The notes beneath the pieces are model-generated. The model was not told the DNA's origin. It was given only the letters and a program-made list of their open reading frames with translations, and searched no databases. A stretch of 64,000 nt of DNA from a virus (lineage: Duplodnaviria > Caudoviricetes): positions 32,001-96,000 of IMG/VR virus record IMGVR_UViG_3300032030_002802. The stretch is one strand, 5' to 3'. Made by a program: the position numbers and the translations under genes. Below are positions 1 through 45,160 of the stretch, one piece after another. The first letter of the stretch is position 1. The number at the start of each line of letters is the position of its first letter.

Positions 1-585
1 GGCGTTGGTTGCGGCCGCCGGCGCCCACCACCAGCTGTCCGGGATCCAGTTTGCCTGCGACGTCACGTACTTCTCCAGCGTTCCGTCCAGCGCGGCGCAG
101 AGTATCCACGCCTCGAGGCGCACGCGTGCCTCGCCCCGGGGCATCCCCTGCGCTATCTCGTCGTCCGTCATCTCGTCCACGTCCTTGGCCGGGAAGTTGC
201 TGGCCATGTACCTCTCGGCCCCGTTCGGGCGGGACAGGTAGTGCTCGCGGAACAGGTCGACCGGGTCCAGCCCCTGCTCGTACTCGGTGAGCCACGGCAG
301 TCCCGCGATGTCCACCTTCACGGTGGCCGTCTCCAGCGTCGGCACCTTGACCTCGCCGTTGCCTATTATGAACACATGCCCGACGAACGCGGAGTGCGCG
401 GTGAGGTCGAACTTCACCATGTCGGCGTGGCGGCCGTTCGTCCTGTACAGCTTCCCGTGGGTCTTGGCGACCTCCACGAGCCCGGAGTACACCGAGTCCA
501 CGTGGATTTTCCTCTGTTCCGGCTTCGGCTCGGCCATCTCGTCGGACAGCACGGCCGTGTCTTGCGGGTCTTGCTCTTCTTCCAT
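1..585 (-). CDS. Putative RT-partner protein (3' end runs off window; not in supplied ORF track)
   Basis: ATG at 585 preceded by AAAGGAG. Open for 195 codons to the window edge (MEEEQDPQD...LFREHYLSRPNGAERYMASNFPAKDVDEMTDDEIAQGMPRGEARVRLEAWILCAALDG...WWW). Lies directly downstream of array A. The partner role is inferred from context and recalled similarity. Confidence 0.7.
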   Translation of the reverse strand, partial: MEEEQDPQDTAVLSDEMAEPKPEQRKIHVDSVYSGLVEVAKTHGKLYRTNGRHADMVKFDLTAHSAFVGHVFIIGNGEVKVPTLETATVKVDIAGLPWLTEYEQGLDPVDLFREHYLSRPNGAERYMASNFPAKDVDEMTDDEIAQGMPRGEARVRLEAWILCAALDGTLEKYVTSQANWIPDSWWWAPAAATNA

Positions 586-614
586 TTCGGTTCTCCTTTG
601 GTTTGTCCCATTAG

Positions 615-1315
615 GTAGGCGGCCTGTTGGTTTGGCATTGGTCAGATTGAGACCTGGTAGAGGCCTCGGGCTGTGGGTAGACAGCTGGGCCGAAACCAGG
701 TCGAATGTCAGAGTCCGCCCTTCCTGGGTGTATGTCCGGCGTCCGGGTGTGTCCGGCGGGGTCTCCCGCGGAATGTGCGTCGTGTCGCAGATTGACAGCT
801 GAGAATGAGGCGACCGAGAGGATGGAGACCTCGACGGACGAGCGGTCGCCTTATTCCAGCTGAATGCAGTACGGGGTCCTCCCGCCGGCCTGTCTCGTCC
901 CGCACCGGTTTCCGGCCCTGTTTACGCAGCAGTGCGCAGATGCGCAGCGTGCTTGCCAGATCGGCGATCCTTCACGTGTCGGATCACCGATCTGGTGTGC
1001 ACGCCACGGTGGTCAGGCCGTCATGCCGGGAAGTCGTGCGCTTCCGCCGTTGTGGCTTCAGGAGCCCATAGATTGTGCGAGCCCCGTCCAGGGACATCGG
1101 ATGTGGATTGGCCCGGGCCATCCGATGTCACGGACAGTGCTCGTACGATGTACCTGGGCGTCATGCGCGTGTAGGCCGGGCTGCGCTTCGCCGCCTGTGT
1201 ACGGTCTATTGGTCAGATCCGGCTGGCCGAACCACGTGGTGTACCCGGCATGGGTAGACCGGGTGTACCACGTGGGGAGGCGCAGCCGTGTTCCAGCGGC
1301 ATCATGGCACAGTCT
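615..1315. ncRNA. Structured non-coding array A: 5 YAGAT-hairpin units
   Basis: YAGAT at 643, 788, 937, 1069, 1214 (spacing 145, 149, 132, 145). Each is followed by a long inverted repeat: 651-702, 796-862, 947-1004, 1075-1146, 1220-1288. No credible ORF. Confidence 0.85.
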
Positions 1316-1318
1316 CGC

Positions 1319-1603
1319 CTATTTCTTCCTGCCGGCCAGCGTCTTCCGCAGCAGCCGTTCGGCCCGCTGCATCGCGTATCTCCTCGCCCCTGGGCAGTTG
1401 CAGCCGCCGCTGAACCAGTGGCACTCGTACGGCGACACGAGCCCGGCCGAGTTCAGCGGCCTGTACCACTTGCACGCCTGGACGGTGAACCCGTCCTTCA
1501 CGCAGCCGTACGTCAGCCGCACGTCGTCCTCGCCGAACGCCTCGGGCGACACCTCAAGCGTCACCGTGCATAAGTTCATCCTGTTGTCGGTCGCCATCTC
1601 CAT
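1319..1603 (-). CDS. Hypothetical protein (94 aa)
   Basis: Start trimmed to MEMATDNRM, coupled to the stop of the upstream gene and preceded by AAAGGA. Confidence 0.6.
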   Translation of the reverse strand: MEMATDNRMNLCTVTLEVSPEAFGEDDVRLTYGCVKDGFTVQACKWYRPLNSAGLVSPYECHWFSGGCNCPGARRYAMQRAERLLRKTLAGRKK

Positions 1604-1791
1604 CAGTCCTTTCTCATGAGGTAGCAGCTGTGTATCGCGTCCTGCACCTTGGATATCGCCTGGTTCACGTACATGAATGCGGTAGCGGACCCCTCCACGC
1701 CGCATATGGACCGGCCTATCTCCTCCAGCCCGCGCTCTGCGCCGCGTAGGGACTCCTCGGCCCGCGCGACCGTGTCGCCGGTCTCGCTCAT
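1603..1791 (-). CDS. Small hypothetical helical protein (62 aa), translationally coupled to the RT
   Basis: ATGA overlap with the RT stop at 1788-1791; GGAGG upstream. Confidence 0.65.
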   Translation of the reverse strand: MSETGDTVARAEESLRGAERGLEEIGRSICGVEGSATAFMYVNQAISKVQDAIHSCYLMRKD

Positions 1792-3077
1792 GCGGTCACC
1801 TCCATCATCTCCGCCGTGTACACGCTCGGGCCGCACCGTGAGGCGCGGTACATCCGCATCAGGCTCTTGTAGCCCATCGTCCTGAGCATGTCGTCCGACG
1901 TCAGCGCCTTTGCCTTGCGGTGCTGGGTCTGCCGTCCGACGTACACGCCCTTGATGTGCTCCCTGATGTACTGGTCCAGCCTGCGCACCCGCGTCGGGTT
2001 GTCGATCACGCTGAAGAAGTAGCGCTCCCAGCCGAAGTTGCGCTGGTCGGCGTAGTGGCCGTCGCGCAGCAGCCAGTTGATCTTCCTGATGGCCTTGACC
2101 TGCTCCTCCCGGCTCTCCTTCGGGATGTACTTGTGCGGCCGGCAGATGCGCCGTATCTTGAGCTTGATGCGGTGGTAGCTCTCCTCGCTCATGTCGACCG
2201 TGCCGTTAGAGATCTCGCAGCCGAGGAACGTGAACGGGTGCGAGCTGTCGACCCGGGTGGTCTTCTTCTCGTTCAGCTTCAGGCCCTTCGCCGCCAGCAT
2301 CTCGCGCAGCGTGTCCAGCGCCTTGTCCGCGTCCGTCCCCAGCACCAGGATGTCGTCCGCGTACCGCAGGTACAGGACGTCCATGGCCGACAGCCGCTCG
2401 TCCACGTCCCTGAGGGCGAGGTTGGCGAGCAGGGTGCCGAGGGCGTTGCCCTGCCTGATCGCCATGTACCGCGGCTCCAGCTCGCCGTTGACGTACACGC
2501 GGTCGTCGTGGAAGTGCTTCCAGACGAGCGCGTCCACGGGGCTGCCGGTGTCCATGCTCTTCAGCGTGGCGTCCAGCGTCTCGCGGTTCACGCTGTCGAA
2601 GTACTTGCTGAGGTCGACCTTCCACCCACGGTCTCCGCGCCTCAGCCTTGGTATGAGGTCGCCGTGCAGGATCCGCTTCACGCCGATCCCGCGTTGGTAC
2701 GACCTGCACGACGGGTGTATCATCCCGCCGTACAGCCTGTTGTAGATCGCGCTCACGACACCGAGCACCAGGCCGTCCAGCGGCTGGCTCGGCGCGTACA
2801 GGGTGCGCACCTCCTTGAACTCCCTGTGCACCGCCTCCTTGTACGAGAGGTAGATGCCGGTAATCTTGTCGAGGTACAGGGTCTTCGGCGGCGACAGCGT
2901 GAAGCGCCCGTCGGCGATGGCCTGAACCAGCGCGGCGCGGCCGACCGTGTCGGCCACCGCCCCGAACGACTCCATGTCGATCCTGCGGCCCTTCTTCCTG
3001 CGGACGCGGTTCATCACGTCCTGCCAGATGGCCGGGTCGCACAGCATCTCCATTTTCTCGTCTTCGTCACTCATCAT
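1788..3077 (-). CDS. Reverse transcriptase, stand-alone unknown-group type (429 aa)
   Basis: RT motifs HPSCRSYQRG, WKVDLSKYFDSV, IRQGNALGTLLANL, YLRYADDILVLG, GLKLNEKKT and FTFLG. Start at 3077 (MMSDEDEK) with AGGAG at 3086-3090. Confidence 0.95.
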   Translation of the reverse strand: MMSDEDEKMEMLCDPAIWQDVMNRVRRKKGRRIDMESFGAVADTVGRAALVQAIADGRFTLSPPKTLYLDKITGIYLSYKEAVHREFKEVRTLYAPSQPLDGLVLGVVSAIYNRLYGGMIHPSCRSYQRGIGVKRILHGDLIPRLRRGDRGWKVDLSKYFDSVNRETLDATLKSMDTGSPVDALVWKHFHDDRVYVNGELEPRYMAIRQGNALGTLLANLALRDVDERLSAMDVLYLRYADDILVLGTDADKALDTLREMLAAKGLKLNEKKTTRVDSSHPFTFLGCEISNGTVDMSEESYHRIKLKIRRICRPHKYIPKESREEQVKAIRKINWLLRDGHYADQRNFGWERYFFSVIDNPTRVRRLDQYIREHIKGVYVGRQTQHRKAKALTSDDMLRTMGYKSLMRMYRASRCGPSVYTAEMMEVTA

Positions 3078-3099
3078 TGTCTGTTCTCCTTTTGTTGTT

Positions 3100-3965
3100 G
3101 TCCCGCCCTTCCGCGCCTGTGTGTGCGTTGTCGTGCAGATCGCCGTCGAGGCAGGATACCGTCGGGATCGGCATGGCCGATGCGACGGTATCTCGGGGGT
3201 CGACGGAGTGTCTCGGCGCGTCATGGGCGTACCCGCGTGCGCGCCTTCGGCATCGGCTATTCCGCCATGTGGCAGATCGGCCGCGGGCGAATCGGAGTCG
3301 CAGCGCCGGCGCGTGCTAGCGCGTGGGCGCAGCCATCCCCGTTTCGCCGCGGCTGTGCGTTGAATGCCTCCTGGCCCGCGTCCTGCATGTCCTGCGTGTC
3401 CGGCCGTGCGGCAGTGCGGCCTTCGGCACCCGTCCGTCAGGTGGCGGGTCAGATCCGTGTCGCATTAGGAGATGATGCGCATTCGTGCAGTCAGAGAATG
3501 CGCGTCATCTCCGTAACGACACAAAGGTGTCATGGTGTGCCTCGTGGCCTGCCCGGTCCTTCGGCGCGCGTCCCTTCGTCATAATGCAGATCGGAGGCAG
3601 CATTAAGCAGGTGATCACAGGGCGGTCGCAGTGTGATCACCTGCGTATGCTGCCGCGCGTGCAGGTGCGCCTCGTGGACTGGGTTCGGGGAATGGCCGGC
3701 GTCGGGGACGGTTCGTGCCATGTGGCTCAGATCGAACCCGGTGAAGGCGATCTTCGGCCAGGATGCTAGTCCTGGGCTAAGATCGCGTGAACCGGGTGAG
3801 TGGGCGGCCCCTCCTGCCGGCCTGGTCGGGCTGGGTTGGACGGCGCTTCCGCCGCCGTCTGCTGCTGGTCCCTTAGATTTGGCCGGATCCTTGGGCTCTG
3901 TCGGAGACGAACGGTCAGGTCGTATCCGTCGAGCTCCAAGGATCCGGGCGTGGATCGCGGCGTCG
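3100..3965. ncRNA. Structured non-coding array B: 6 YAGAT-hairpin units immediately upstream of the RT
   Basis: YAGAT at 3136, 3273, 3450, 3587, 3728, 3874. Hairpins at 3143-3206, 3280-3353, 3457-3522 (GGAGATGATGCGCATTC/GAATGCGCGTCATCTCC), 3596-3654 (GCAGGTGATCACA/TGTGATCACCTGC), 3736-3797 and 3883-3947 (CCGGATCCTTGG/CCAAGGATCCGG). Confidence 0.88.
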
Positions 3966-3995
3966 TGCGTCCGTGCGTCCGTGCATACGCCCGCG

Positions 3996-4652
3996 TCAGG
4001 TGTGCGTGGACCAGCTCCCGTACGGTGCGCGTTCGCCGCTTGGCAGGTAGTCGGCGTGGTAGATTATGCCGCCACACAGGCCGGGCCGGCGCGACATCGC
4101 CTCGCGCACGGCCGTGTCTGGCTGCGTTGCGGCCTTCATGGCCGTGTCGGCCTGGAACGTCCGCGAGACCCCCTCCTGTCCGAGCATGTCCGGGAGTTCG
4201 CTCTCGTCGAAGCCGTCCACCACCTCCTGCGTACGGCCGTCCCTGAAGATGTACCAGCACCGGTCGTAGATGTCCACGCGCTCGCGGGTGTACGGGTCGA
4301 TCCACTCCTCCCTGAAGAAGAACGAGTGCTGCGCCATGTCGGCGAACACGAACGTCTCGCGCACCGGCAGCCGGTCCTTCCAGTCGTGCGCCGTGTGGGT
4401 CTGCCCGTCCTGGAGGCGTATCTCCGACCCTTCCGGGAAGAACGGGCTCCTGTTGTCGATGGCGTCGGCGTTGGCCCTGTACCCGAAGCACGCGAGCAGC
4501 GTCCTCGCGGCCTGTCCGCGCTTTTCCTCCAGCTTTCTCAGCTCGGGGGCTTCGGTCAGTTTTGCGTTCCGGATGGCCGCGTCGAGCATCAGGTCCGCGT
4601 TTATCGCGAACTGCACGGCGGCGTGGAACTGCTCTGGGCATGTTATCGTCAT
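3996..4652 (-). CDS. Hypothetical protein, DUF4120-like
   Basis: FADMAQHSFFF and the C-terminal GGIIYH...WSTHT resemble DUF4120 phage proteins (recalled similarity). Confidence 0.55.
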   Translation of the reverse strand: MTITCPEQFHAAVQFAINADLMLDAAIRNAKLTEAPELRKLEEKRGQAARTLLACFGYRANADAIDNRSPFFPEGSEIRLQDGQTHTAHDWKDRLPVRETFVFADMAQHSFFFREEWIDPYTRERVDIYDRCWYIFRDGRTQEVVDGFDESELPDMLGQEGVSRTFQADTAMKAATQPDTAVREAMSRRPGLCGGIIYHADYLPSGERAPYGSWSTHT

Positions 4653-4653
4653 G

Positions 4654-4848
4654 TCAGTAGTCCGTTAGGGTTTGCGTCTCGTCGTCCGTCGCGTTCACCG
4701 GCTTCACGCCGATCAGCTCCAGCTTTGACAGGTCGGCGTTCTTGAACGCCTCCTCCGCCTGCTTGAACGCCTCCTGGGGCGTCTCGGCCAGGACGGCCAC
4801 GTCTATCCGCCCGTCAACGGCCAGGCTCACCGTGAATGTCTTGTTCAT
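4654..4848 (-). CDS. Small hypothetical protein (64 aa)
   Basis: MNKTFTVSLAVDG start with GAGGAG RBS and an A/C-rich leader. Confidence 0.7.
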   Translation of the reverse strand: MNKTFTVSLAVDGRIDVAVLAETPQEAFKQAEEAFKNADLSKLELIGVKPVNATDDETQTLTDY

Positions 4849-4879
4849 GTCTCTCCTCGGTTTTGTTGTTGTCGTGGGT

Positions 4880-5605
4880 TCCCGGTCCTGTTCATTCCGC
4901 CGTTCGTCAGATTCTGACGGCAGGTCGCCGCTTTGGTGGGCGCGGCCCTGGGGGAGCTCCGCAGCGCAGGTCACGGAGCGGAGGTGCTCCTCCTCGGGCC
5001 GCGCAGGGCGGCTGCCTGCCGGCTGATGGAATGCCGGTCATCCCTTTTGTTGTAGTTGTCTGGCTTCCGCGCTGTTGTTCTGTCTGTGTCGCAGATGGAG
5101 GATCAGCGAAGCGATGCCACGCCTCCTGAAGTCCCACGGAGGTGAGGCATCGCTGCCTGATCCGAATGCGGCGTGCGCGTACTGCCTTTTCCTGGTCGTG
5201 TTCGGCAGGCTCGGGCGGCTGTCTTTTCGCGGTTGGTCAGATCGCAAGGCAGGCTGAGGCTGAGCGGCGGTCGTAGCTAAACGATTTCGCGGCTCGCCGA
5301 GGCCTGCCTGGGGTGCATTCTCCGCCGCACGCCCGCCTCGGCTTTGTGCGCTTCTTTCGGGTTCCGCACCAGTGTCCTCTCGGTTAGGCAGATCGCGTCG
5401 TCGGCAGATCCAGAAGCCTCCGAGGTCGTCGGATGGCCTCTGGATCGCAGGGCGACGCACTGGATGGGTGCGTCTTCCCGGCGGCTTGGGCGCCTGTGTG
5501 TCGTTGATCCGCTAGATCGTCTGTCTTCTGAGTCGGTTCTCGAGACCTGCGGTCGCAGGTCGTGCGCGCGAATCGAGGAAGAAATACGGACGTGGAGCCA
5601 GCGCC
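4880..5605. ncRNA. Structured non-coding array C: 5 YAGAT-hairpin units
   Basis: YAGAT at 4908, 5092, 5238, 5389, 5513. Hairpins at 4918-5021, 5100-5163, 5247-5309, 5395-5458 and 5518-5592. Confidence 0.85.
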
Positions 5606-5646
5606 TCATGCCGCGTCGCGCGCCGTCACGTCGTCACGCCGCCGCG

Positions 5647-6306
5647 TCACCTGTGCAGGTCCATCACCACGTCGCCGGTCCCGAAGGCGCACTTGAACCC
5701 GCATCTCGGGCAGTCGCCGATGCACTTCGTCGCGTCCTTGGGCACGCGCCTGTCGGACCCGTCCTGCACCCAGCAGTTCCGCTTCACGTTCCTCTGGCGG
5801 GGCGGTGGCATGCGCGGCCACTGCGAGCGGAGCACGCGCAGGTTGTCCGGCAGCGAGGCGTGGTCGAGCCCGTCCATCTTCGAGTAGCCGTAGAACACGG
5901 TGCCGGGGTGGTCGCCGGCTATCCGCCTCCACATGTCCAGGTACTCCCGCGAGTAGAAGTCCCCAGCGACGTGGAGCCGCATCACCCGCGGCAGCGCCAT
6001 GTACAGGAACTTCCGGATGAGCAGCTCGGCGAGCGTCGGGTAGTTCTCCAGCATCCACAGGTTGTGGGTCCACATGTCCCACACGTTCGGGAACATGTCG
6101 CGTATCCGGTTGTTGTAGCAGCTCTTCGCGCAGTACCCGCGCAGCCTGGGGTTGCACGTCTTGACGTGGGGGATGCTCCACGACGGTATGTAGCCGATCT
6201 TGCGGTTGCCGGTGCCGATAGAGACGTACAGCTCGGGGCTGGCCGTGCCGACGATCTCTACGCCTTCCGCCCCGTCCACGTCCTCCGGGTCGATCCCCAC
6301 CTTCAT
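5647..6306 (-). CDS. Gp88-like Cys-rich protein (radical SAM-related phage family)
   Basis: GNRKIG..SWSIP..TC......C...CY, RLHVAGDFYS..Y...W, FYGYSK and C-terminal CxxxCxxC. Confidence 0.7.
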   Translation of the reverse strand: MKVGIDPEDVDGAEGVEIVGTASPELYVSIGTGNRKIGYIPSWSIPHVKTCNPRLRGYCAKSCYNNRIRDMFPNVWDMWTHNLWMLENYPTLAELLIRKFLYMALPRVMRLHVAGDFYSREYLDMWRRIAGDHPGTVFYGYSKMDGLDHASLPDNLRVLRSQWPRMPPPRQRNVKRNCWVQDGSDRRVPKDATKCIGDCPRCGFKCAFGTGDVVMDLHR

Positions 6307-6605
6307 GCCAGCACCTCCTTCCAGGTGTCCGTCACGTCGATGGTCCGCACGGTCTTGTACCGCTTCTCGTTCTCCCTGCGCGCCTTCAGCGTCTCCTGCC
6401 ACTCGTCGTCGCCGATCCCGTAGTATTCCTGCTCCTCGCCGAGGACGTCGAGCGCCGCGTCGAACAGGACGCAGTCCATGTAGGAGATCGCCTCCCCCCG
6501 CGCGCTCATGTCGACGAACCTCTTCTTGACCTGCCCGGCGGCCTCCCTGGACATCGTGTACTTGACCAGCGTGTCCATGGTCTCGATGTTCGACCCCGCG
6601 GTCAT
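6303..6605 (-). CDS. Hypothetical protein
   Basis: ORF with 4-nt overlaps to both neighbours. Confidence 0.65.
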   Translation of the reverse strand: MTAGSNIETMDTLVKYTMSREAAGQVKKRFVDMSARGEAISYMDCVLFDAALDVLGEEQEYYGIGDDEWQETLKARRENEKRYKTVRTIDVTDTWKEVLA

Positions 6606-6831
6606 CCGAACAGCTCCATCTGCACCAGCTTTGGGCGTTTCGCCGCTTCTTTGGCCAGCGTGGCCAGCGACTTGCCCGTCAGGGCCTTCAGCTGGGTGTC
6701 TATGGCCGCTCGGACGAAGTCGTCGATGGTCGAGCTGAACTGCACCCTGGCCGCGTGCTTGATGACCGTGTGCTCGACCATGGTGACCGCCGCACGCACG
6801 GTCGTCATGGGTTCTTTGCCTTCGGGTTCGC

Positions 6832-7455
6832 TCACAGCCTGTCCTCCAGCTCGATTACCTCGTACACGGTCCTGCCGCGCTTGTTCCTCTCGGCGGCGAT
6901 CTTGCACGCCTCGTCCTTGCGCTCCAGCAGCATGGCCTCGAACGGCGGCGAGTCCGTCACCGGCTTGCCTCCCACCAGCTTCAGGCCGACCTTGGGATAG
7001 GTCCTGCCGCAGAGGCCCGCGGGGCCGAGCCAGCCGACGGCGCGTCCGGACGGCGCTACGACGCGTATCGCGTAGCGCGTGACGTCCTTGGCCGTCACCG
7101 GGACCCGCTTGCCGTACACGACCTCGCCGGTCCGCACGTACACCCTGCCGTTCACGACCTCGATCTTCTCGAAGTCGTCGTCGTCCTCGCCGGACCGGTA
7201 TATCTCGCCGCTGAGCTTGATCCCCCGGGTCGACAGCAGCCGCTGGACGCGGAATGTGTCCTTGACGATGTCGTACCCGTGCATGTTGTAGCTGTCCGGC
7301 ACCACGTCGCCAACCTCGCCGCCGCAGTCCGCCGCATCGTCGCTGAGCGACGCGAGGACCCGCAGGTCGCACATGCCGTTTATGCGGTCGACGAGCTCCT
7401 GGGGTATCGGCTTGCTCGGGCTGAGCGAGCCCGAGAACGTTGAATTGTATCCCAT
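6832..7455 (-). CDS. Hypothetical phage protein
   Basis: AAGGAG RBS; MGYNSTFSGSL-type start. Confidence 0.7.
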   Translation of the reverse strand: MGYNSTFSGSLSPSKPIPQELVDRINGMCDLRVLASLSDDAADCGGEVGDVVPDSYNMHGYDIVKDTFRVQRLLSTRGIKLSGEIYRSGEDDDDFEKIEVVNGRVYVRTGEVVYGKRVPVTAKDVTRYAIRVVAPSGRAVGWLGPAGLCGRTYPKVGLKLVGGKPVTDSPPFEAMLLERKDEACKIAAERNKRGRTVYEVIELEDRL

Positions 7456-7464
7456 GTCGTCTCC

Positions 7465-7869
7465 TTAGAACGGGATGTCCTCCGGGTCGCCGGTCGCGAT
7501 GTTGGCGTCGGGCGGGTCTTCATGCGGGTCGGCTTCCTGCGGCTCGTTCCCGGCCCGTGGCGCCATGACGGCCCTGATGGCCGACATCGAGAGCACCCAC
7601 CGGCCGTTGCCGTTCCTGTCGGTGTACTTGTGCGACGTCAGCCGCGCGGTGCACGTGACGTGTCTTCCGAGGTCCAGCTGCTGGTCGAGGTCCGTCGCGT
7701 CGGTGCCGAACATCGTCATCGGCACGAACGCCTGCGCCCCGGCTTCGTCCTTCACGGACAGCACGACGTTGCGGAAGTACCCGTTGCCGTTCTTGTACGG
7801 CACCAGTTCGCCGATCTCCGCGATGTCGCCGGCCATCGGCGTCTCGGATATCCTGTACCTGTCGCTCAT
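7465..7869 (-). CDS. ssb: Single-stranded DNA-binding protein (OB fold)
   Basis: Beta-rich core with RLTSHKYTDRNGNGRW and an acidic tail ending EDIPF. Confidence 0.75.
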   Translation of the reverse strand: MSDRYRISETPMAGDIAEIGELVPYKNGNGYFRNVVLSVKDEAGAQAFVPMTMFGTDATDLDQQLDLGRHVTCTARLTSHKYTDRNGNGRWVLSMSAIRAVMAPRAGNEPQEADPHEDPPDANIATGDPEDIPF

Positions 7870-8249
7870 GGCCTGGTGTCCCCGTCGAATACCGGCTTGC
7901 CGTCGGACGCGACGTCGATGCCCCGCAGGCACTCCTTCGGCGGCATGAGCGACTTCGCGTTCTCGCGCTCCTTCTCGTCGGGGTCGGACTCCATCGTCGC
8001 GACGGCCTCGACGTATTCGACGAGGGGCTCGAACGGGATGTCGTACCCCGGCTTGTACTGGAAGTTAACCCGGTGCTGCCGGATCACCTTGGACAGCATG
8101 GGGCATGCGCCCCAGGCCTCAGCCGCCGCCTGGTCCATGTGGCCGTACAGCAGGAACTTGTACGAGGGGTACCCGTTGCGGATCTCCTCCTCGAGGACGG
8201 CCGCGGCGCCGAGGTGTTTCAGGACGCAGCCTAAGCATGGTTTTCTCAT
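7866..8249 (-). CDS. Hypothetical protein (MRKPCLGCVLKHL...)
   Basis: AGGAG RBS; ATGA coupling. Confidence 0.65.
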   Translation of the reverse strand: MRKPCLGCVLKHLGAAAVLEEEIRNGYPSYKFLLYGHMDQAAAEAWGACPMLSKVIRQHRVNFQYKPGYDIPFEPLVEYVEAVATMESDPDEKERENAKSLMPPKECLRGIDVASDGKPVFDGDTRP

Positions 8250-8815
8250 TCTTGTTCTCCTTGTGTTTTCTGTCTTGGCGCCAGGTAGTGCCGCAGGGTC
8301 TGTATCGGGTGCAGGGCCGACACCGGCACCGCGGCTATCTCGACCCGCGTGGCCACGCTTGTCGCGGCCCGCGCGTACTTCACGGCCTCTTCGCCGATGG
8401 CCCAGCCGGCCAGCTTCACGTTGAGCCCGCCCCTCGACTCGCGGGCGTGCTCGTGCTTGCTCACGAAGGCGCACACGAGCACGTGCCGCACGACGCCGGG
8501 CGGCACGGCCAGCGACGTCAGCGGGACGAGCATGTGCTTCGTCGACGGGTCTCCGGCGACAGTGGACACCATCACGGACAAGGCGATGCGCCCGCGGGCG
8601 GTGTCCACGATGTAGGGGGTCGTGCGCCTCGCGTGCACGGCCAGATGCCCGCTCCGGCACAGCTTCTCCAGGATCGCTGCGCCCATCACGGCGAACCGCC
8701 TGGAGTTCTCTGTCCTCGCGAACCTGGGCGGCGCTACGCCACGTGCGGCGTCCACGTCGGATTTCGGGACGCGAATGCTCTTGATGGGCCCCGGAAGGTT
8801 CGCGCGCGGGGTCAT
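8246..8815 (-). CDS. Hypothetical protein
   Basis: Coupled ORF starting MTPRANLPG. Confidence 0.55.
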   Translation of the reverse strand: MTPRANLPGPIKSIRVPKSDVDAARGVAPPRFARTENSRRFAVMGAAILEKLCRSGHLAVHARRTTPYIVDTARGRIALSVMVSTVAGDPSTKHMLVPLTSLAVPPGVVRHVLVCAFVSKHEHARESRGGLNVKLAGWAIGEEAVKYARAATSVATRVEIAAVPVSALHPIQTLRHYLAPRQKTQGEQE

Positions 8816-9161
8816 CCGAGCACCTCCCTGCCCTCGGGGAGCAGCGTGTACTCGACTCCGCGCGTTCCGGGCCTCGCCGCGAGCACCCCCATCTTGCAGA
8901 GGCGGTTGACCGGGCGCCGGGCTCTCACCATTATCGACATCCTCCCACTCCTCGTCTGCTGCCTCGGCGGGCCGTACAGGGCCGCGCCCAGCTGTTCGCA
9001 CGTGTACCACCCGGACTCCAGCACTTTGGCCGCGCGCCTCAGCAGGTCCATGCTCGCGCTGTCGGCCATCGGGCGGCGGGCACGCTTGTCGCGCCTGACC
9101 GCCGCCGGGCATCCGGCGCGCCCGGGGCAGTCGGCGCACAGGGTCTTCCGGCGGCACCGCC

Positions 9162-9572
9162 TCATTTCTTCCCCGGCACCAGTTCGGACGCCGGCGAGAG
9201 CGGCTGCTCGTTCCACAGTATGGTGGTCGACCGTGTCCCGGCCTCGACCAGCGTCGCCTGCCTCTGGTTGACCGTGACGGTGAACACCGTTCCGGGCTGG
9301 ACGTCGAACACGGCCTTCCATACGGCGAGTATGTAGTTCTCGTGCAGCGCGCGCGGGAGCCCGGGGTACTCCTTCACCATGGCGAGGGCCATTTCGTCCG
9401 CGTCCGCGCCCGTCTCGGCCACCTCCGCCTTCTCGGCCAGCTTGAACCCCGGCACGGTCAGGAACGCCCCGGAGGACTGGCTCGGAAAGCAAGGGACGAC
9501 GGGCTCGCGCCGCGTCGTCCACTCGCTGTCCGCTGTAGTCCGCTCCTTTGGTATGGAGACGAGGAACTTCAT
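9162..9572 (-). CDS. Hypothetical protein
   Basis: Coupled ORF starting MKFLVSIPK. Confidence 0.6.
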   Translation of the reverse strand: MKFLVSIPKERTTADSEWTTRREPVVPCFPSQSSGAFLTVPGFKLAEKAEVAETGADADEMALAMVKEYPGLPRALHENYILAVWKAVFDVQPGTVFTVTVNQRQATLVEAGTRSTTILWNEQPLSPASELVPGKK

Positions 9573-10138
9573 CCGAGGGCCTTCACCTGCTCTTCCGTGG
9601 GCGCCACGATCCCGCCCTTGGGCTGGTTGCGTCCCGGGACGCTGATCTTGGTCTTGGCGAGGAACTCGTCGACGTTGGCGTCGCAGCAGTTCACGAGCGA
9701 CACGGCCTGGGCCTGGGTGCAGTCCACGGTGGTGGATACGAACCCGAATCCGGAGTCGCGCCCCTCCGCGTCGACGTACACCGCCTCGACGCTGATCGCG
9801 CGGAGGTTGCTGTGGTCGGCGAGGAACTGCACGAGCTGCTGGACGTGCGTCCCGATCTGCCCCGGCGGTACGGTTGACGCCGTGAGCGCTTCTACGGCCT
9901 GAGCCTTGGGGGCGTCGAGCAGGACGCGCGGGTGTTCGGCGTCCTCTCCGGGGGCGGTGACGCGGACGGCCGCCGCGTCGTCGAGCTTCTTCACGCACTC
10001 CAGGATCGACGGGGTGTGGAAACGGATCTCCTCCGTCTTCTTCTCGCCGTTGAGCGTGACCTCTAGGGCCACGTTACGGTTCGGGGCCGGGGCTTTCTGG
10101 GTCTCCGGCGTCTCGGGTGTGTTGTCTGGCTTTTCCAT
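9569..10138 (-). CDS. Hypothetical protein
   Basis: AAGGAG RBS; plausible composition. Confidence 0.7.
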   Translation of the reverse strand: MEKPDNTPETPETQKAPAPNRNVALEVTLNGEKKTEEIRFHTPSILECVKKLDDAAAVRVTAPGEDAEHPRVLLDAPKAQAVEALTASTVPPGQIGTHVQQLVQFLADHSNLRAISVEAVYVDAEGRDSGFGFVSTTVDCTQAQAVSLVNCCDANVDEFLAKTKISVPGRNQPKGGIVAPTEEQVKALG

Positions 10139-10149
10139 TTCGGTTCTCC

Positions 10150-10878
10150 TTATTTCTGCAGGGCGTACCGTTTTCCGATGGTTGCGGCTTCGCTTTTCAC
10201 GGTATCGGCCATGAACATGTGCGTTGCTAGTTGCTGGGCGCGTATTTCCAGGGCGTCCATGTTCCGAGTCACGTCTTCCTTGTCGAAGAGTGTGGTTAGT
10301 GGCGCGTCGCGGTCGACGGCCATGTCATTCCCGGCTTTTGCGTCAGCCTCTGCGGCAGCCCGGGCCACGGCGCTGATCTGCTCCCTGGCCTCGGACATGT
10401 GCTTCAGCATGTACGCCAGTTGGTTTTCCTGCATCCTCGCCCGGTTCCTCGTGCTCATGTCTTGGCTGCGTTTCTCTGCCTCCTGGCTGGTGAGCGCTCG
10501 TTTTCCCCGCTCCTTGTCCTCCCGCGTCATTTCCTCCGCTAGCGTTTTTTGCCGCTTCTGGGCCTCAGCAAGCCGTGTCCGCAGCTTAATCGTGGCGTTT
10601 GCCTCCACCGCCGCCTTGATGGTGTTGATTGTCTCTACCTCGGCTTTGGCGCTCTCGCCGTTCGTGAATACGGTGTTTGCGATACCCATCTGTGTAGACA
10701 GGTTCCTAAGCAATGCCGGAACGAATCCGTGGCCGACATCCGTAAGCGGTTTCACCGTTACGACCGTCTGTCCGTCTGCACTGGTTTTCGCGCTGATCGT
10801 GAAGTCACGTCCCTCGGTGGGCATGGTGTTCGCGACTATGGTGTAGAGCTTCTGCGCGTCTAGCGTCTGTATGGCCAT
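10150..10878 (-). CDS. Hypothetical coiled-coil protein
   Basis: MAIQTLDAQK start with AAGGAG; helical A/E/K/R-rich C-terminal half. Confidence 0.65.
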   Translation of the reverse strand: MAIQTLDAQKLYTIVANTMPTEGRDFTISAKTSADGQTVVTVKPLTDVGHGFVPALLRNLSTQMGIANTVFTNGESAKAEVETINTIKAAVEANATIKLRTRLAEAQKRQKTLAEEMTREDKERGKRALTSQEAEKRSQDMSTRNRARMQENQLAYMLKHMSEAREQISAVARAAAEADAKAGNDMAVDRDAPLTTLFDKEDVTRNMDALEIRAQQLATHMFMADTVKSEAATIGKRYALQK

Positions 10879-10879
10879 A

Positions 10880-11389
10880 CTAGTTCTCCTTCTCTGTTGT
10901 TCCGCCGGCTTGGTTATTCGGCGACTTTTGGCGTTCCTGTTGTCCGGGCTGCTCGGCGTGAGCGGTCTCGGGTTGCTTGGATTCATTCTCCTCGGCGGGC
11001 TGCGGATCGAGTCCGTCGCCGCCTGAAGCCGGTGCGGGGGCCGTCGGTCCCGGCGGAGGGGCCCACAGCGAGGCCATCGCCTGAGCGTCCTCCTTCGTGA
11101 TCCCGAGCTGCAGGCCGTCGAAGCCTATGGCCGCAAGGTAGTCGAGGAGGGCCTTCCCGACCGCGTGCTGCCCGGCGATGACGGTCTCGGGCACGCCCGG
11201 TATGTCCACGGGGGTAGTCACGTCCTTGTCGTACGGATGGTCGAACACGCCTCTCTTGTGTATACGGCGCAGCCCGGCTATCGAGTGGACGCTCATCAGC
11301 CCGGCCACGTGCCTGAGGGCCGCGTTGGCGAGTGCCCTGAGCTCGGGGTACTCGTCGAAGTCAGCCGCCAGTTGCGGTGTCAGTGTCAT
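10880..11389 (-). CDS. Hypothetical protein
   Basis: AAGGAG RBS; fits the operon. Confidence 0.65.
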   Translation of the reverse strand: MTLTPQLAADFDEYPELRALANAALRHVAGLMSVHSIAGLRRIHKRGVFDHPYDKDVTTPVDIPGVPETVIAGQHAVGKALLDYLAAIGFDGLQLGITKEDAQAMASLWAPPPGPTAPAPASGGDGLDPQPAEENESKQPETAHAEQPGQQERQKSPNNQAGGTTEKEN

Positions 11390-12182
11390 CTTGCTCAGTC
11401 TCCTTCTTTGTTGTTTTGTCGGGAAGGTCTTCGGTGACCTTGTCCTTGTACCTGCTGTACAGTTCGGTCAGCCACTCCGCCGTGAGCGGCACCTTCTCGT
11501 GCGTCGTCGCGTGCTCCAGGTACATGCCAGCCTTGGCCAGGTCGGCTATCCGGTCGGTGAGCTTGCCCATCCCGTCGGCGCATGCCATCAGCGTGAACGC
11601 CGACACCAGGTGGGTAAGCCCGTTGTAGGTATCCTTGTCGTCCTTGAGCCGCCAGTAGAACGTCCCGTCCGGTTTCGGCCCGGTGCCGAACAGCCAGTCG
11701 AGGCGCTCCGGGAGGCCGTCCCCCGCATAGGGCCACTCCCGCCGCCCGTCGTCTTCCGCCTTCGTCTCGGCGAAGGGGTCGGTCCCGACAGGTGCGCGCA
11801 GCGTGGCCTCGATGCGTGCAAGCGTCTCGCGGTTGTTCAGGTTCACCTCGTCGTTCCTGTGGGCCAGGACGTACACCAGCCTGCCGGGGTGGTTCCTGCG
11901 GAGCCAGTCGGCGAACCAGAGTCCGCCCTTGTGGGCGGAGTCCTTGCCGAACTTGTGGTGGCTCGGGCACAGCAGTATCCCGTTCATCGTGTCGTACCGC
12001 AGCGCGCGGCACGTGTTGCGGTTCTCGAGGTGGTGGGCGTTCGGCGTGCTGCCGCTTCCGCAGACCGCGCACTTGTGCCCCCACTCCTCAGCCACCTTTG
12101 CCGTCCACAGGCGCATCAGGCGCCTTCGGATCCTGGCAAGCGGCTCCAGCTTCTTCCGTTTCTTCTTCTGTTTTCTGCTCAT
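11361..12182 (-). CDS. HNH (NinG-like) nuclease-domain protein
   Basis: CAVCG....NAHH.........RYDTMNGILLCPSHH. Confidence 0.75.
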   Translation of the reverse strand: MSRKQKKKRKKLEPLARIRRRLMRLWTAKVAEEWGHKCAVCGSGSTPNAHHLENRNTCRALRYDTMNGILLCPSHHKFGKDSAHKGGLWFADWLRRNHPGRLVYVLAHRNDEVNLNNRETLARIEATLRAPVGTDPFAETKAEDDGRREWPYAGDGLPERLDWLFGTGPKPDGTFYWRLKDDKDTYNGLTHLVSAFTLMACADGMGKLTDRIADLAKAGMYLEHATTHEKVPLTAEWLTELYSRYKDKVTEDLPDKTTKKETEQDDTDTATGG

Positions 12183-13674
12183 GGGTTTGTAGTATACCAT
12201 TTCCCGCGGCCGTCTGCAATGCCCGGGCTTGCGAAAAGAGCGCGGCGGCGACGGACGGCTTCCCGCCCCGTAGCGCCGCCTGGGCCTTTTTCGCGAGCGA
12301 CGTGGCGCGTGCGATGGCCGCGTTGCGAAGGTTCGTGGCGCGTCGGCGGGCGCGTCGGCGGCGTTTGGCCTCCGTCGCCCCCCACAGCCGCGCCTCGTAG
12401 TACATGACCGCCTTCTCGATCATGCCGAACACCTGGTTTATCCTGTCGTCCCAGTCGAGCCACTCGCGCTCCTCGCGGGTCAGGTGCTTTGACTTCGGGT
12501 TTGGCTTCTCCTTCGGCGGGCTGCACTGCGGCTTGCCCGGGGCGCCCTCCGCCCGCATGTTCAGGCGCAGGCAGTCGCGGCACGGCAGCGGAGGGGACGA
12601 CGCCACCATGTCGCGCATGTTCCGGCTCCCCAGCCACTCCGCCACGTCCCAGTACCTCTCGTTGTCCGCCACGGCCTCGCCGCGGGCCTCCCTGGCCGCG
12701 TCGATGTACTGCGGCAGGGTGTCGTACGGCATCAGCGACGGGGCCGCGACGACGAACTCGGGCACGGACCAGCCGCTCACGAGCACGTTGGGCTGCTGGC
12801 GCATCACGACGTCCGCGAGCTCCCAGCCGGCGAACGACACCATCGTGGGGGAGCACGACCACCGGTTCACCTCCAGCCACTTGCCGGTACCCTCCGTGAA
12901 CCCGCGCGGATGCGGCTCGATGTACACGCCCACCGCGAGGAAGCACACGTCCCTGTCCGGCACCGGCGCGTTGCGGCCGATGCACGGGACGCGCACGAAC
13001 GGCGCGTGGAAGCAGTTCGAGTCGCACAGGGATATCCCGTACCTGTAGAACCCGTCGTTCGACCTGGCGGCCTCCGCGGCCGTCGCGGGCGGCGGCTCTC
13101 CGGACACGTCAACGGGCAGGCCGTACTTCACGGCCGCGGCCAGCTTCGCCACCCAGTTTATCGTGAGGCTTCCGTACAGGCCGTACCCCTGCGGCTTGAA
13201 CCTCAGCTGCACCTCCGCCCTGTGGGCGAGGGCGTGGGCCGCCTCCAGGAGGCGCCATCCCCACCTTTCCGCGACCAGGTCGACGATCGCGGGGCTTTGC
13301 GGCCTCCGAAGCACCACGCCATCCCGGGGCATGCCGACGCGGTAGAACGCCGGCACGGTCTGCTCCAGCCACGTCGTGTTCGTCTTCCTGAAGGACGGGA
13401 CCCGCTGCGACGACATCGTGCGGAACTCCGTCCACGGCGTCGGCGCGGCCGCCGCGTCCCACAAACGCAGTCCACCAGCCGTCCCCGAGGCGCTTGGGGC
13501 GAACGGGTCCGGGTCCACGCTGTCCAGGCTCGCGAGCGCGGCCTCCTGCCTCTCCGGCGTCAGCCACGCCTGGTGCGGGTACTCCGGGTGCGCGAACGGG
13601 AAATGGCTTTCGCCCGTCGCCCGCACCACGCTGCACGCGGCCCTCGCACGCTCCGACAGCGCTGATCTGTCCAT
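12088..13674 (-). CDS. Large hypothetical protein
   Basis: About 528-aa ORF with GGAGGGAG upstream of MDRS. Confidence 0.65.
   Translation of the reverse strand: MDRSALSERARAACSVVRATGESHFPFAHPEYPHQAWLTPERQEAALASLDSVDPDPFAPSASGTAGGLRLWDAAAAPTPWTEFRTMSSQRVPSFRKTNTTWLEQTVPAFYRVGMPRDGVVLRRPQSPAIVDLVAERWGWRLLEAAHALAHRAEVQLRFKPQGYGLYGSLTINWVAKLAAAVKYGLPVDVSGEPPPATAAEAARSNDGFYRYGISLCDSNCFHAPFVRVPCIGRNAPVPDRDVCFLAVGVYIEPHPRGFTEGTGKWLEVNRWSCSPTMVSFAGWELADVVMRQQPNVLVSGWSVPEFVVAAPSLMPYDTLPQYIDAAREARGEAVADNERYWDVAEWLGSRNMRDMVASSPPLPCRDCLRLNMRAEGAPGKPQCSPPKEKPNPKSKHLTREEREWLDWDDRINQVFGMIEKAVMYYEARLWGATEAKRRRRARRRATNLRNAAIARATSLAKKAQAALRGGKPSVAAALFSQARALQTAAGNGILQTHEQKTEEETEEAGAACQDPKAPDAPVDGKGG
12191..12219 (-). 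promoter_or_regulatory. Sigma70-like promoter
   Basis: Minus strand TTGCAG-17 nt-TATACT with extended -10 TG. Confidence 0.65.
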
Positions 13675-13857
13675 TCTCTCCCTCCACAACCTTCGACGTT
13701 AGCAGCTTAAGTATCCCGCGTACGCACGCCTCGCCCGGCGTAATGCAGCAGTGCACCCCGTCGTGGTAGCTGTCGAACACGCAGAAGTCGCAGGCGTCGT
13801 GGTACGCGATCGCCCGCGCGAGCTCCTCCGGGCTGCGCGTGAGCCTCTCGAATAGGG

Positions 13858-45138: not shown

Positions 45139-45160
45139 TCTAATACCTCCTGTCGCACGT

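What the first reader, a model, noticed from the sequence alone, without database searches (positions are those of the whole stretch)
1..5605. Phage reverse transcriptase embedded in three arrays of 16 sequence-diverse, structure-conserved hairpin units: a candidate multi-template retron-like system
Seen: an intact 429-aa YADD RT (1788-3077) is flanked by three ORF-free blocks (615-1315, 3100-3965, 4880-5605) of 5, 6 and 5 units, with a period of 124-184 nt (mostly about 145). Every unit has YAGAT followed within 0-5 nt by a 52-104-nt imperfect inverted repeat. The hairpin sequences are all different, so a normal repeat or CRISPR finder would miss the array. Known: retrons copy one msd hairpin into ssDNA, DGRs need TR/VR pairs, and group II RTs sit inside a ribozyme; none of these layouts fits. 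Inference: one RT copies many ncRNA units into a library of distinct ssDNA hairpins. These might act as decoys for host DNA-binding or defence proteins, or as triggers for a partner protein. The layout recalls unknown-group (UG27-like) phage RT loci, but I have not verified that assignment.
Basis: partly seen in the sequence, partly recalled or inferred. Interest (0 to 1): 0.97.

Follow-up and report, generated by a model that had tools for sequence, protein, structure and literature searches.

The report
UG27 phage reverse transcriptase hairpin-RNA array
This is a divergent, high-GC rumen-phage member of the UG27 reverse-transcriptase systems, in which one enzyme and two helper proteins copy many different hairpin RNA units into short single-stranded DNA hairpins; a September 2026 preprint already described this kind of system, and its biological role is still unknown.

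Summary
A 429-aa YADD reverse transcriptase (1788-3077, minus strand) lies among 16 units of conserved motif plus variable hairpin. Four more units lie just left of the window. All 20 sit within 8.4 kb of a 199-kb phage contig and nowhere else in it.

The RT best matches PADLOC RT_UG27 (3e-66). The two UG27 accessory families are next to it (RTas346 1.5e-7, RTas337 8e-14).

Read on the gene strand, each unit is: P1, an AYGA/GAA internal loop, P2, a central hairpin, then AUCUR. P1 and P2 covary strongly across 63 distinct units from seven related loci.

A bioRxiv preprint of 24 Sep 2026 (10.64898/2026.09.22.753630) showed that UG27 systems carry this kind of array. They reverse-transcribe each central hairpin, starting at a conserved AUC, into 50-100-nt ssDNA.

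What is new is the clade:
- ruminant-gut phage of 58-66% GC;
- RT only 30% identical to canonical UG27;
- larger accessory proteins;
- its own ncRNA consensus, with the published AUCN7UANAG and UUYA motifs absent;
- probably below the published search cut-offs.

cDNA synthesis here is inferred, not shown. The function is unknown. Earlier notes from this scan on the same stretch agree.

The parts
1..585 (-). 5' part (first 195 codons) of a 315-aa gene, the UG27 small-accessory (cluster 346) homologue. The gene continues left of the window to contig 31638. The ~435-aa cluster-337 homologue (contig 30334-31641), a 172-aa gene and 4 more ncRNA units (AUC at contig 29223, 29917, 30067, 30211) follow, all outside the window.
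   Evidence: PADLOC RTas346 1.5e-7 for the full 315 aa and RTas337 8.4e-14 for the next gene. Syntenic in 6 relatives at 39-73% and 34-66% identity. Units outside the window.
605..728 (-). ncRNA unit 1 of block A (AUC at 647-645). It lies next to the RBS of the 315-aa gene and its P1 is degenerate.
   Evidence: PWM 26.7 bits; hairpin and outer stem; z -2.05
750..889 (-). ncRNA unit (AUC at 792-790)
   Evidence: PWM 23.7; P1 GCCGGCGGG/CCCGCCGG; z -3.08
899..1034 (-). ncRNA unit (AUC at 941-939)
   Evidence: Seed of alignment A1; PWM 26.7; z -4.71
1031..1174 (-). ncRNA unit (AUC at 1073-1071, AUCUA)
   Evidence: CM R1 86 bits; z -2.75
1176..1315 (-). ncRNA unit (AUC at 1218-1216)
   Evidence: CM R1 70.4 bits; z -3.86
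1319..1570 (-). 83-aa ORF of unknown function, conserved in 4 of the 6 close relatives (none detected in L004 or L008)
   Evidence: tblastn 42-51% identity in L002, L003, L009, L010; no Pfam, PHROG or PADLOC hit
1603..1836 (-). 77-aa ORF overlapping the RT stop; unknown function, not detectably conserved
   Evidence: GC3 0.78; no tblastn hit in relatives, although relatives have a 78-86-aa gene at this position
1788..3077 (-). Reverse transcriptase, 429 aa, YADD active site, UG27 group
   Evidence: PADLOC RT_UG27 3.4e-66 / 221.9 bits against UG26 159 bits; Pfam RVT_1; sequence; 72-89% identical homologues in metagenomes
3098..3234 (-). ncRNA unit (AUC at 3140-3138). Its P1 3' arm abuts the RT's RBS.
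   Evidence: CM R1 98.3 bits; P1 CGCCC/GGGCG and P2 CGCGCC/GGCGCG
3235..3380 (-). ncRNA unit (AUC at 3277-3275)
   Evidence: PWM 28.8; outer stem; z -2.96
3411..3555 (-). ncRNA unit (AUC at 3454-3452)
   Evidence: CM R1 72.6 bits; z -5.77
3549..3680 (-). ncRNA unit (AUC at 3591-3589)
   Evidence: PWM 25.5; P1 GUCC/GGAC with loops ACGA/GAA; z -6.59
3690..3825 (-). ncRNA unit (AUC at 3732-3730)
   Evidence: CM R1 20.9 bits; PWM 26.4; z -2.89
3836..3977 (-). ncRNA unit (AUC at 3878-3876, AUCUA)
   Evidence: CM R1 33.6 bits; z -5.73
3996..4652 (-). 218-aa protein of unknown function. It is conserved at this position in this clade only and is not a core UG27 component.
   Evidence: 32-51% identity in all 6 close relatives, absent from L005-L007; no family hit
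4654..4851 (-). 65-aa ORF of unknown function
   Evidence: 53% identity in L002 only
4870..5045 (-). ncRNA unit with the longest hairpin, 102 nt (AUC at 4912-4910). It abuts the RBS of the 65-aa ORF.
   Evidence: PWM 19.7; P1 GGG/CCC, AUGA/GAA, P2 CCGG/CCGG; z -5.48
5054..5190 (-). ncRNA unit (AUC at 5096-5094)
   Evidence: PWM 31.9; z -3.70
5200..5340 (-). ncRNA unit (AUC at 5242-5240)
   Evidence: CM R1 27.3 bits; PWM 37.4; z -2.22
5351..5482 (-). ncRNA unit (AUC at 5393-5391)
   Evidence: PWM 32.8; P1 CGGG/CCCG, AAGA/GAA, P2 CGCACC/GGUGCG read; z -6.05
5475..5619 (-). ncRNA unit (AUC at 5517-5515, AUCUA), first unit after the GP88-like gene; its central hairpin is weak
   Evidence: CM R1 85.1 bits; z -0.04

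Best explanation
The locus is a complete UG27-type phage reverse-transcriptase system from a divergent clade.

Components: the RT (YADD), a 315-aa cluster-346 homologue, a ~435-aa cluster-337 homologue, and 20 ncRNA units of about 145 nt. The units lie in five intergenic blocks on the same strand as the genes.

Likely mechanism:
1. The operon transcript carries the units.
2. Each unit folds as an outer stem P1, a purine-rich 4x3 internal loop (5' AYGA / 3' GAA), a 5-6-bp stem P2, an asymmetric internal loop, and a sequence-variable central hairpin of 52-102 nt.
3. The three-protein complex recognises the conserved platform.
4. It starts cDNA synthesis at the invariant AUC (AUCUR) that lies 0-6 nt 3' of the central hairpin.
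5. It copies the hairpin and stops in the roughly 8-nt 5' junction (RCAY).
6. This releases about 20 different ssDNA hairpins of roughly 60-110 nt.

Shown here: family membership of the three proteins, the unit architecture with covariation, restriction of the units to this locus, and conservation in relatives.

Inferred from the published experiments on canonical UG27: cDNA synthesis, its start and stop points, and the need for all three proteins.

The role of the hairpin DNAs is unknown. My best guess, at about 0.25-0.3, is a structure-based decoy or binder for a host DNA-sensing or DNA-processing protein during infection.
For: Proteins: RT_UG27 3.4e-66; RTas346 1.5e-7 and RTas337 8.4e-14. 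A canonical control locus, L007, gives 1e-231, 1e-68 and 1e-153, and an intermediate clade, L005, gives 1e-97, 2e-18 and 6e-28.

Location: all 20 units in the 199-kb contig lie within 8.4 kb around the RT, all in one orientation.

Architecture:
- A covariance model built from 8 units finds 71 matches, 63 of them distinct. Apart from two weak, short matches elsewhere in the window (E 0.13 and 0.43, no AUC), all lie in the arrays of this locus and of six relatives with 72-88% RT identity, all on the gene strand. It finds none in loci of other UG27 clades.
- P1/P2 cells are paired 79% of the time against 46% in shuffles. The covariation score is 0.684 against 0.176 shuffled and 0.10-0.17 slid. 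The eight pairs next to the internal loop are paired in about 79-100% of units (seven of them about 94% or more), with GC<->CG swaps.
- Cognate 5' and 3' arms pair better than non-cognate arms in all seven loci, p <= 0.024.

Strand and start site:
- Canonical UG27 units carry ATCN7TANAG on the RT gene strand. These include the experimentally tested Alistipes putredinis DSM 17216 locus (L036) and the Phocaeicola coprophilus DSM 18228 locus (L018), in a species the preprint modelled.
- They show the same P1 / purine loop / P2 / central hairpin / AUC plan.
- AUC directly after the hairpin is also kept in the L005 clade.

Literature: cDNAs of 50-100 nt map to the central hairpins, start at the AUC, and are lost in YSAA, sORF-deletion and bORF-deletion mutants. 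Mestre 2022 defined UG27 with clusters 337 and 346 in gut phages.
Against: - No cDNA or strand-specific RNA data exist for this locus. The RNA-library data are contigs only.
- The accessory-protein matches are weak (29.6 and 50 bits), and the RT is only about 30% identical to canonical UG27.
- The published 3' motif AUCN7UANAG is absent from the units: 0 of 16 match exactly and 1 at the AUC site matches with one mismatch. UUYA is found in only 2 of 61 5' junctions.
- The published pseudoknot was not examined.
- The covariation alignment was fitted to the model's structure, which favours that structure.
- All 20 units fold more stably as the opposite strand. However, the same bias is seen in 188 of 261 canonical units whose RNA strand is known, so this does not argue for the other strand.
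Confidence: 0.85

Rival explanations
1. The units are structured RNAs that work as RNA (RT-binding scaffolds, mRNA stabilisers or regulators of the interleaved genes). In this clade they are not copied into DNA, or only one of them is.
For: No cDNA evidence exists for this locus. The clade's motifs differ from those at the published start and stop sites. Each block ends with a unit directly at the RBS of the next gene, which would suit a role in translation or stability.
Against: The invariant AUC at the foot of every hairpin and the shared plan with experimentally validated units. All three proteins required for cDNA synthesis are kept. The RT is the most conserved gene of the locus, at 72-88% identity, against 26-73% for the accessory and other locus genes and 60-73% for the flanking GP88-like gene.
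Confidence: 0.08
2. The units are transcribed from the + strand, antisense to the genes. The conserved motif ending in CAGAT would be a promoter or 5' leader, and the hairpin would be the body of small antisense RNAs.
For: All 20 units fold more stably as the + strand. On the gene strand, single stem mismatches are A.C 32 against G.U 15. The motif has a two-block look, CCTGT-N15-CAGAT.
Against: Canonical UG27 units of known polarity show the same folding bias, 188 of 261. There is no sigma-70-like promoter at the units. In homologous systems the conserved AUC lies 3' of the hairpin on the gene strand. In P2, the column with 9 U.G pairs on the gene strand would be C.A on the + strand.
Confidence: 0.04
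3. The units are generic phage genome signals (terminator/promoter cassettes, REP/MITE-like elements or origin structures) that only happen to flank an RT.
For: They are intergenic, repeated, hairpin-forming, and lie in a replication-gene module.
Against: None of the other intergenic gaps of the 199-kb contig has one. There are no T-tracts or terminator-like hits on the gene strand. The hairpin sequences are all different, so they are not copies of a mobile element. The same arrays travel with the RT and accessory genes in six relatives and, in other forms, with distant UG27 RTs.
Confidence: 0.02
4. It is a retron, a diversity-generating retroelement or a group II intron.
For: It contains an RT with nearby structured non-coding DNA.
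Against: No retron RT model is among the 25 best PADLOC hits, all far below UG27. No TR/VR-type direct repeat was found. There is no Rfam family hit, including group II introns and retron msr. The RT has no maturase domain.
Confidence: 0.01

Closest known systems
UG27 reverse-transcriptase systems with variable ncRNA arrays (bioRxiv 10.64898/2026.09.22.753630, Sept 2026; UG27 defined in Mestre et al., NAR 2022, PMC9226505)
   Same: - Phage-borne class 2 UG/Abi RT plus cluster-346 and cluster-337 accessory proteins.
- Tandem units of about 150 nt on the gene strand, with unrelated sequences but one fold.
- Outer stems enclosing an asymmetric loop and a central hairpin.
- AUC at the 3' foot of the hairpin.
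- Extra units in neighbouring intergenic regions.
- No complementarity of the hairpins to the phage genome (as the preprint reports).
   Different: - The RT is about 30% identical to canonical members and has YADD rather than YSDD.
- The accessory proteins are about 315 and 435 aa, against 160 and 347 aa in the canonical control locus L007, and match their HMMs only weakly.
- The 3' motif is AUCUR-N4-AY-N9-ACR rather than AUCN7UANAG.
- The 5' junction is RCAY rather than UUYA.
- The internal loop is AYGA/GAA rather than RAGG/GAG.
- There are 20 units in 5 blocks, against a published mean of about 5.8 per locus.
- The clade is 58-66% GC and comes from ruminant gut, and this member is a 199-kb contig.
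- No copy was found in 185,579 bacterial species genomes.
- cDNA has not been demonstrated here.
Retrons (msr-msd ncRNA plus RT producing msDNA)
   Same: An RT copies a hairpin-forming stretch of an adjacent ncRNA into a short ssDNA hairpin. An outer stem flanks the template, loosely like a1/a2.
   Different: A retron has one template, not 20. The RT family is different. No msr or branching-G signature was found (Rfam none). Two unrelated accessory proteins are involved. The system is carried by a phage rather than being a host defence.
DRT2 (UG2) and DRT9 (UG28), class 2 UG/Abi RTs with ncRNA templates
   Same: Same RT class. A nearby structured ncRNA serves as template.
   Different: Those systems make long concatemeric or homopolymeric cDNA from a single ncRNA and act in host defence. 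UG27 makes many short discrete hairpins and is phage-encoded.

Membership tests
UG27 system | RT belongs to UG/Abi group UG27 | tested here: met
   The best PADLOC model is RT_UG27 at 3.4e-66 and 221.9 bits. The next best is UG26 at 159 bits. No phylogenetic tree was built.
UG27 system | Adjacent cluster-346 protein (small accessory, sORF) | tested here: met
   The 315-aa neighbour matches RTas346 at 1.5e-7, as the only family hit. The match is weak (29.6 bits) and covers the C-terminal two thirds of the profile. The L005 homologue bridges the gap: 29% identity to ours and RTas346 at 2e-18.
UG27 system | Adjacent cluster-337 protein (large accessory, bORF) | tested here: met
   The ~435-aa gene just left of the window matches RTas337 at 8.4e-14 over profile positions 65-314 of 316.
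UG27 system | Array of ~135-170-nt sequence-diverse ncRNA units on the gene strand | tested here: met
   There are 20 units with a period of 124-184 nt, in one orientation and with no mutual similarity. Relatives carry 7-17 units each.
UG27 system | Common fold: outer stem(s), asymmetric internal loop, central hairpin | tested here: met
   Covariation of P1 and P2, the cognate-arm test, hairpin z-scores, and the same plan in canonical units.
UG27 system | Conserved AUC at the 3' foot of the central hairpin (cDNA start) | tested here: met
   AUC is present in 20 of 20 units here and in 61 of the 63 distinct model matches. The other two are the weak out-of-array matches. The AUC lies 0-6 nt after the hairpin.
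UG27 system | Full 3' motif AUCNNNNNNNUANAG | tested here: not met
   The motif gives 5 tandem hits in the canonical locus L007. None of the 16 window units matches exactly, and one matches at the AUC with one mismatch. This is a feature of the main published model, not of the group as defined. The authors report clades that their model misses.
UG27 system | UUYA on the 5' side of the central hairpin (cDNA stop) | tested here: not met
   UUYA occurs in 2 of 61 5' junctions; the junctions read RCAY instead. A CAUUC appears in some units that the model did not capture.
UG27 system | Pseudoknot and basal extra hairpin (main published class) | not tested
   Some units have a small hairpin after AUCUR, but this was not analysed. 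The preprint also describes a class without the pseudoknot.
UG27 system | RT-, sORF- and bORF-dependent 50-100-nt ssDNA from each central hairpin | not testable with these tools
   Only contigs of public runs were available.
UG27 system | Carried by a phage | tested here: met
   The contig is 199 kb with genes almost all on one strand, and the locus sits in a PolA/DnaB/SSB/Rad50-like module.
Retron | Retron-clade RT and a single msr-msd ncRNA | tested here: not met
   No retron RT model is among the 25 best PADLOC hits. There is no Rfam retron hit. There are 20 templates, not one.
Diversity-generating retroelement | Template repeat and variable repeat pair | tested here: not met
   No direct repeats were found among the units, and the hairpins have no match above chance elsewhere in the genome.
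Group II intron | Ribozyme domains and a maturase (X) domain | tested here: not met
   Rfam found nothing. The RT has RVT_1 only.

The most novel reading that the evidence does not exclude
This ruminant-gut, high-GC clade is a separate lineage of UG27-like systems that the published surveys missed, because its accessory proteins score far below their cut-offs. Its RT-accessory complex would recognise its own RNA platform (AYGA/GAA loop, AUCUR start, RCAY junction) and so be orthogonal to canonical UG27. That would make it a second, independently programmable multi-template producer of ssDNA hairpins. Its unusually large set of 20 hairpin DNAs would act by shape, as decoys or binders of host DNA-sensing or DNA-processing proteins.
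Probability: 0.3. Interest if true: 0.6.

Novelty: new variant of a known kind. Interest (0 to 1): 0.4.

Why it matters
UG27 is the only known system in which one reverse transcriptase turns a genomic array of unrelated hairpin RNAs into a set of discrete ssDNA hairpins. Its purpose in phages is an open question.

This locus adds three things:
- It extends the system to a deep-branching clade in large, high-GC rumen phages.
- It separates what is invariant across clades from what is free to change. Invariant: three proteins, nested P1/P2 stems with a purine-rich 4x3 loop, and AUC at the foot of the hairpin. Free to change: the UANAG and UUYA motifs, the loop letters, and the number of units.
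- It suggests that searches requiring strong accessory-protein scores undercount the family.

It does not reveal the function. The main discovery is already published.

Tried and rejected
- Megablast of window 1-20000 against GenBank phages found no match. The best PolA protein match to a cultured phage is about 25% identical, so there is no named relative or host.
- A scan of IMG/VR with the RT found no relative.
- A first scan of GTDB genomes with the RT found none. A profile scan found only relatives of 33% identity or less, in Bacteroidota and Bacillota, so there is no host clue for this clade.
- Rfam gave no hit, there are no tRNAs, and promoter/terminator scans showed nothing at the units.
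- The published motif was searched in the window and is not present in the units.
- Two hand-written parsers for the outer stems failed and a forced-pair folding did not constrain. They were replaced by duplex tests and the covariance model.
- Pairwise compensatory-change counts in 11 orthologous unit pairs between this locus and L002 gave 38 double changes that kept pairing, against 10-21 in slid controls. But 190 pairs were broken, because hairpin indels misalign. This is too noisy to rely on.
- 'Fast turnover' of hairpins was rejected as a special feature. Only L002 shares recognisable units, but 4-fold sites between the two loci are already 47-66% identical while the units are 56-74% identical. 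The RT is simply the slowest-evolving gene of the locus.
- Strand asymmetry as evidence for + strand RNA, or for selection on the cDNA, is unresolved. The folding bias is shared by canonical units, and the A.C over G.U excess (p = 0.019) is reversed in canonical units.
- Public runs: two metatranscriptome runs of one sheep-gut sample hold the region as contigs. The contig over 2888-4316 has depth about 13, against 2-7 for most other RNA-run contigs (up to 9.7), while the DNA run is flat. Contig depth cannot show expression, strand or ends, and DNA carry-over is possible.
- P0009's contig could not be fetched.
- No complex or structure prediction was run.

Full report
**Observation.** The window is bases 32001-96000 of a single 199,078-bp contig. 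The contig is 65% GC and almost all its genes are on the minus strand. ORF 1788-3077 (-) encodes a 429-aa protein with LRYADDILVLG that matches Pfam RVT_1. Each occurrence is followed within a few bases by a long imperfect hairpin. Fifteen of the 16 adjacent 100-110-nt stretches fold better than dinucleotide shuffles, with z from -2.0 to -6.6; the unit at 5513 does not. YAGAT by itself is not enriched in the window. The conserved element is about 37 nt long. A weight matrix of it finds 20 sites above 14 bits in the whole contig, all on one strand and all at contig 29219-37513. It finds none above 12 bits on the other strand or in a shuffled genome. Four units therefore lie left of the window, and the locus has 20 units in five intergenic blocks. 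Units within an array share no detectable sequence similarity.

**What the proteins are.** The RT's best PADLOC model is RT_UG27, at 3.4e-66 and 221.9 bits; the next best is UG26 at 159 bits. The 315-aa gene whose 5' part is window 1-585 matches RTas346 at 1.5e-7. The next gene, about 435 aa at contig 30334-31641, matches RTas337 at 8.4e-14. These two families are the ones Mestre et al. 2022 found associated with UG27. As a control, a canonical locus (L007) scores 1e-231, 1e-68 and 1e-153. An intermediate clade (L005, RT 41% identical to ours) scores 1e-97, 2e-18 and 6e-28. The present clade is the most divergent of the three, but it has all three components in a comparable order. Two further genes, of 218 aa and 172 aa, are conserved only within this clade.

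**What is already known.** A bioRxiv preprint of 24 Sep 2026 (10.64898/2026.09.22.753630) reports several things about UG27 loci. They carry variable arrays of about 150-nt ncRNA units that differ in sequence but share one fold. [quoted passage not shown] Synthesis begins at the AUC of AUCNNNNNNNUANAG and ends after a UUYA on the other side of the hairpin. A YSAA mutation, or deletion of either accessory ORF, abolishes the products. The role of the cDNAs is unknown, and they show no obvious complementarity to phage or host.

**Anatomy on the gene strand.** Each unit reads, 5' to 3':
- P1;
- AYGA (AUGA in 35, ACGA in 15, AGGA in 3 of 61 units);
- P2, of 5-6 bp;
- a junction of about 8 nt, rich in RCAY;
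- the central hairpin, median 66 nt;
- AUCUR, then about 15 nt ending in ACR;
- P2';
- GAA (48 of 61 units);
- P1'.

A covariance model built from 8 units with only P1 and P2 annotated finds 71 matches, 63 of them distinct. They lie in this locus and in six relatives whose RTs are 72-88% identical, all on the gene strand. The model finds none in the loci of other UG27 clades. Elsewhere in the 64-kb window it finds only two weak, short matches, at E 0.13 and 0.43. On that alignment, 79% of cells pair against 46% in shuffles. The covariation score is 0.684 against 0.176 shuffled and 0.10-0.17 when partners are slid. The eight pairs next to the internal loop pair in about 79-100% of units (seven of them about 94% or more), with frequent GC<->CG exchange. 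That alignment is fitted to the model, so I also ran a test that does not depend on it. In every one of the seven loci, a unit's 5' flank pairs better with its own 3' arm than with the arms of other units, with permutation p <= 0.024 and mostly < 0.001.

**Comparison with canonical units.** In L007 the published motif occurs five times at a roughly 170-nt period on the RT's strand. Forty of the GTDB loci fetched with an RT profile carry three or more such motifs on the RT strand. Units of Alistipes putredinis DSM 17216, a system tested in the preprint, and of Phocaeicola coprophilus DSM 18228 fold as P1, a purine loop (RAGG/GAG), P2, a UUYA junction, the central hairpin, then AUC. The plan is the same as here but the letters differ. 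The published 3' motif is absent from the window's units, and UUYA is found in 2 of 61 junctions. The L005 clade has yet another version, AUCCUAAA-N4-UUUAGU, again directly after a strong hairpin inside an outer stem. Across the three clades the constant features are the nested stems and the AUC.

**Strand.** All 20 units fold more stably as the + strand, and single stem mismatches on the gene strand are A.C 32 against G.U 15. This could suggest antisense transcription or selection on the cDNA. However, canonical units of known polarity show the same folding bias, 188 of 261, while their mismatch bias runs the other way. I therefore treat the asymmetry as unexplained, and not as evidence against gene-strand RNA. 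Gene-strand polarity rests on homology of the plan and the position of the AUC. It is also supported by the absence of promoter-like sites at the units and by U.G pairs in P2.

**Evolution and context.**
- *Relatives.* The six relatives carry 7-17 units in the same syntenic gaps.
- *Rate of change.* Only the overall closest relative, L002, keeps recognisable orthologous units, at 56-74% identity. Four-fold degenerate sites in flanking genes are 47-66% identical. The units therefore drift at about the neutral rate while keeping their fold. The RT is the slowest-evolving gene of the locus.
- *Targets.* The hairpins have no match above chance elsewhere in the 199-kb genome.
- *Phage.* The window is a replication and recombination module, with a UDG-PolA fusion, a DnaB-like helicase, an SNF2/ResIII helicase, a Rad50/SMC-like ATPase, a C5 methylase and an SSB-like protein. 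It has no close cultured relative.
- *Habitat.* Near-identical sequence occurs in sheep, cattle and goat gut metagenomes, in runs from 14 studies; only the top four runs were laid, and most of the rest hold small shares.
- *Prophages.* No close RT relative is present in 185,579 bacterial and archaeal species genomes.

**Was this clade in the published surveys?** The published surveys required either two components at 120 bits or more, or all three at E < 1e-20. This clade's accessory proteins score 30 and 50 bits against PADLOC's models. It was therefore probably not in those data sets. This is my inference, because the published HMMs are not the PADLOC ones.

**Verdict.** What is new is a divergent clade with its own RNA consensus, larger accessory proteins and a large 20-unit array. 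cDNA synthesis at this locus and any biological role remain to be shown.

Noticed in passing
window 45456-47753 (-): A 765-aa family A DNA polymerase carries an N-terminal uracil-DNA-glycosylase-superfamily domain and a 3'-5' exonuclease domain. The best match in cultured phages is only about 25% identical.
   Followed up: partly
window 7465-62985: The rest of the window is a replication and recombination module: SSB-like (7465-7932), weak RecA-like (15955-17247), C5 methylase (38502-40349), DnaB-like helicase (56791-58263), ResIII/SNF2 helicase (58801-60360) and SMC/Rad50-like ATPase (60751-62985). All are on the minus strand.
   Followed up: partly
window 10139-10879, 44261-45455, 47754-48886, 55725-56790: Four other gaps of 0.7-1.2 kb have no ORF with the genome's GC3 signature. 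They contain no UG27 units and no clear repeat families. Their content is unknown.
   Followed up: partly
central hairpins of about 99 units (this locus and L002-L004, L008-L010): About 40% of the hairpins have a 7-10-bp basal helix followed by a small internal loop (2x2 to 4x4) made mostly of C, U and A. Unpaired frequency peaks at 39-46% at 8-10 nt from the base on the 3' arm (32-39% on the 5' arm). This may be a shape feature of the cDNA or of the template.
   Followed up: partly
all 20 units; L011-L075 canonical units: The cDNA-sense strand folds more stably than the RNA-sense strand in 20 of 20 units here and in 188 of 261 canonical UG27 units. The cause is unknown; it could be linker composition or selection on the DNA product.
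   Followed up: partly
window 3963 and 5534-5735: One public-run contig (X4) has an 8-nt insertion, CGTGCGTC, in the GTGCGTCC run just after the last unit of the middle block. One contig of run X1 skips 5534-5735, with only 21 nt on its short side. These may be strain variants or assembly noise.
   Followed up: no
L005:8230-8375 and 10975-11430: An AT-rich (33% GC) UG27 clade, with an RT 41% identical to ours, has four units whose hairpin is followed by AUCCUAAA-N4-UUUAGU. This forms a mini-hairpin directly after the AUC.
   Followed up: partly
window 5647-6402 (-): A GP88-family (PF17338) protein lies directly upstream of the first array block and is syntenic in four of the six close relatives. 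Its function is unknown.
   Followed up: no
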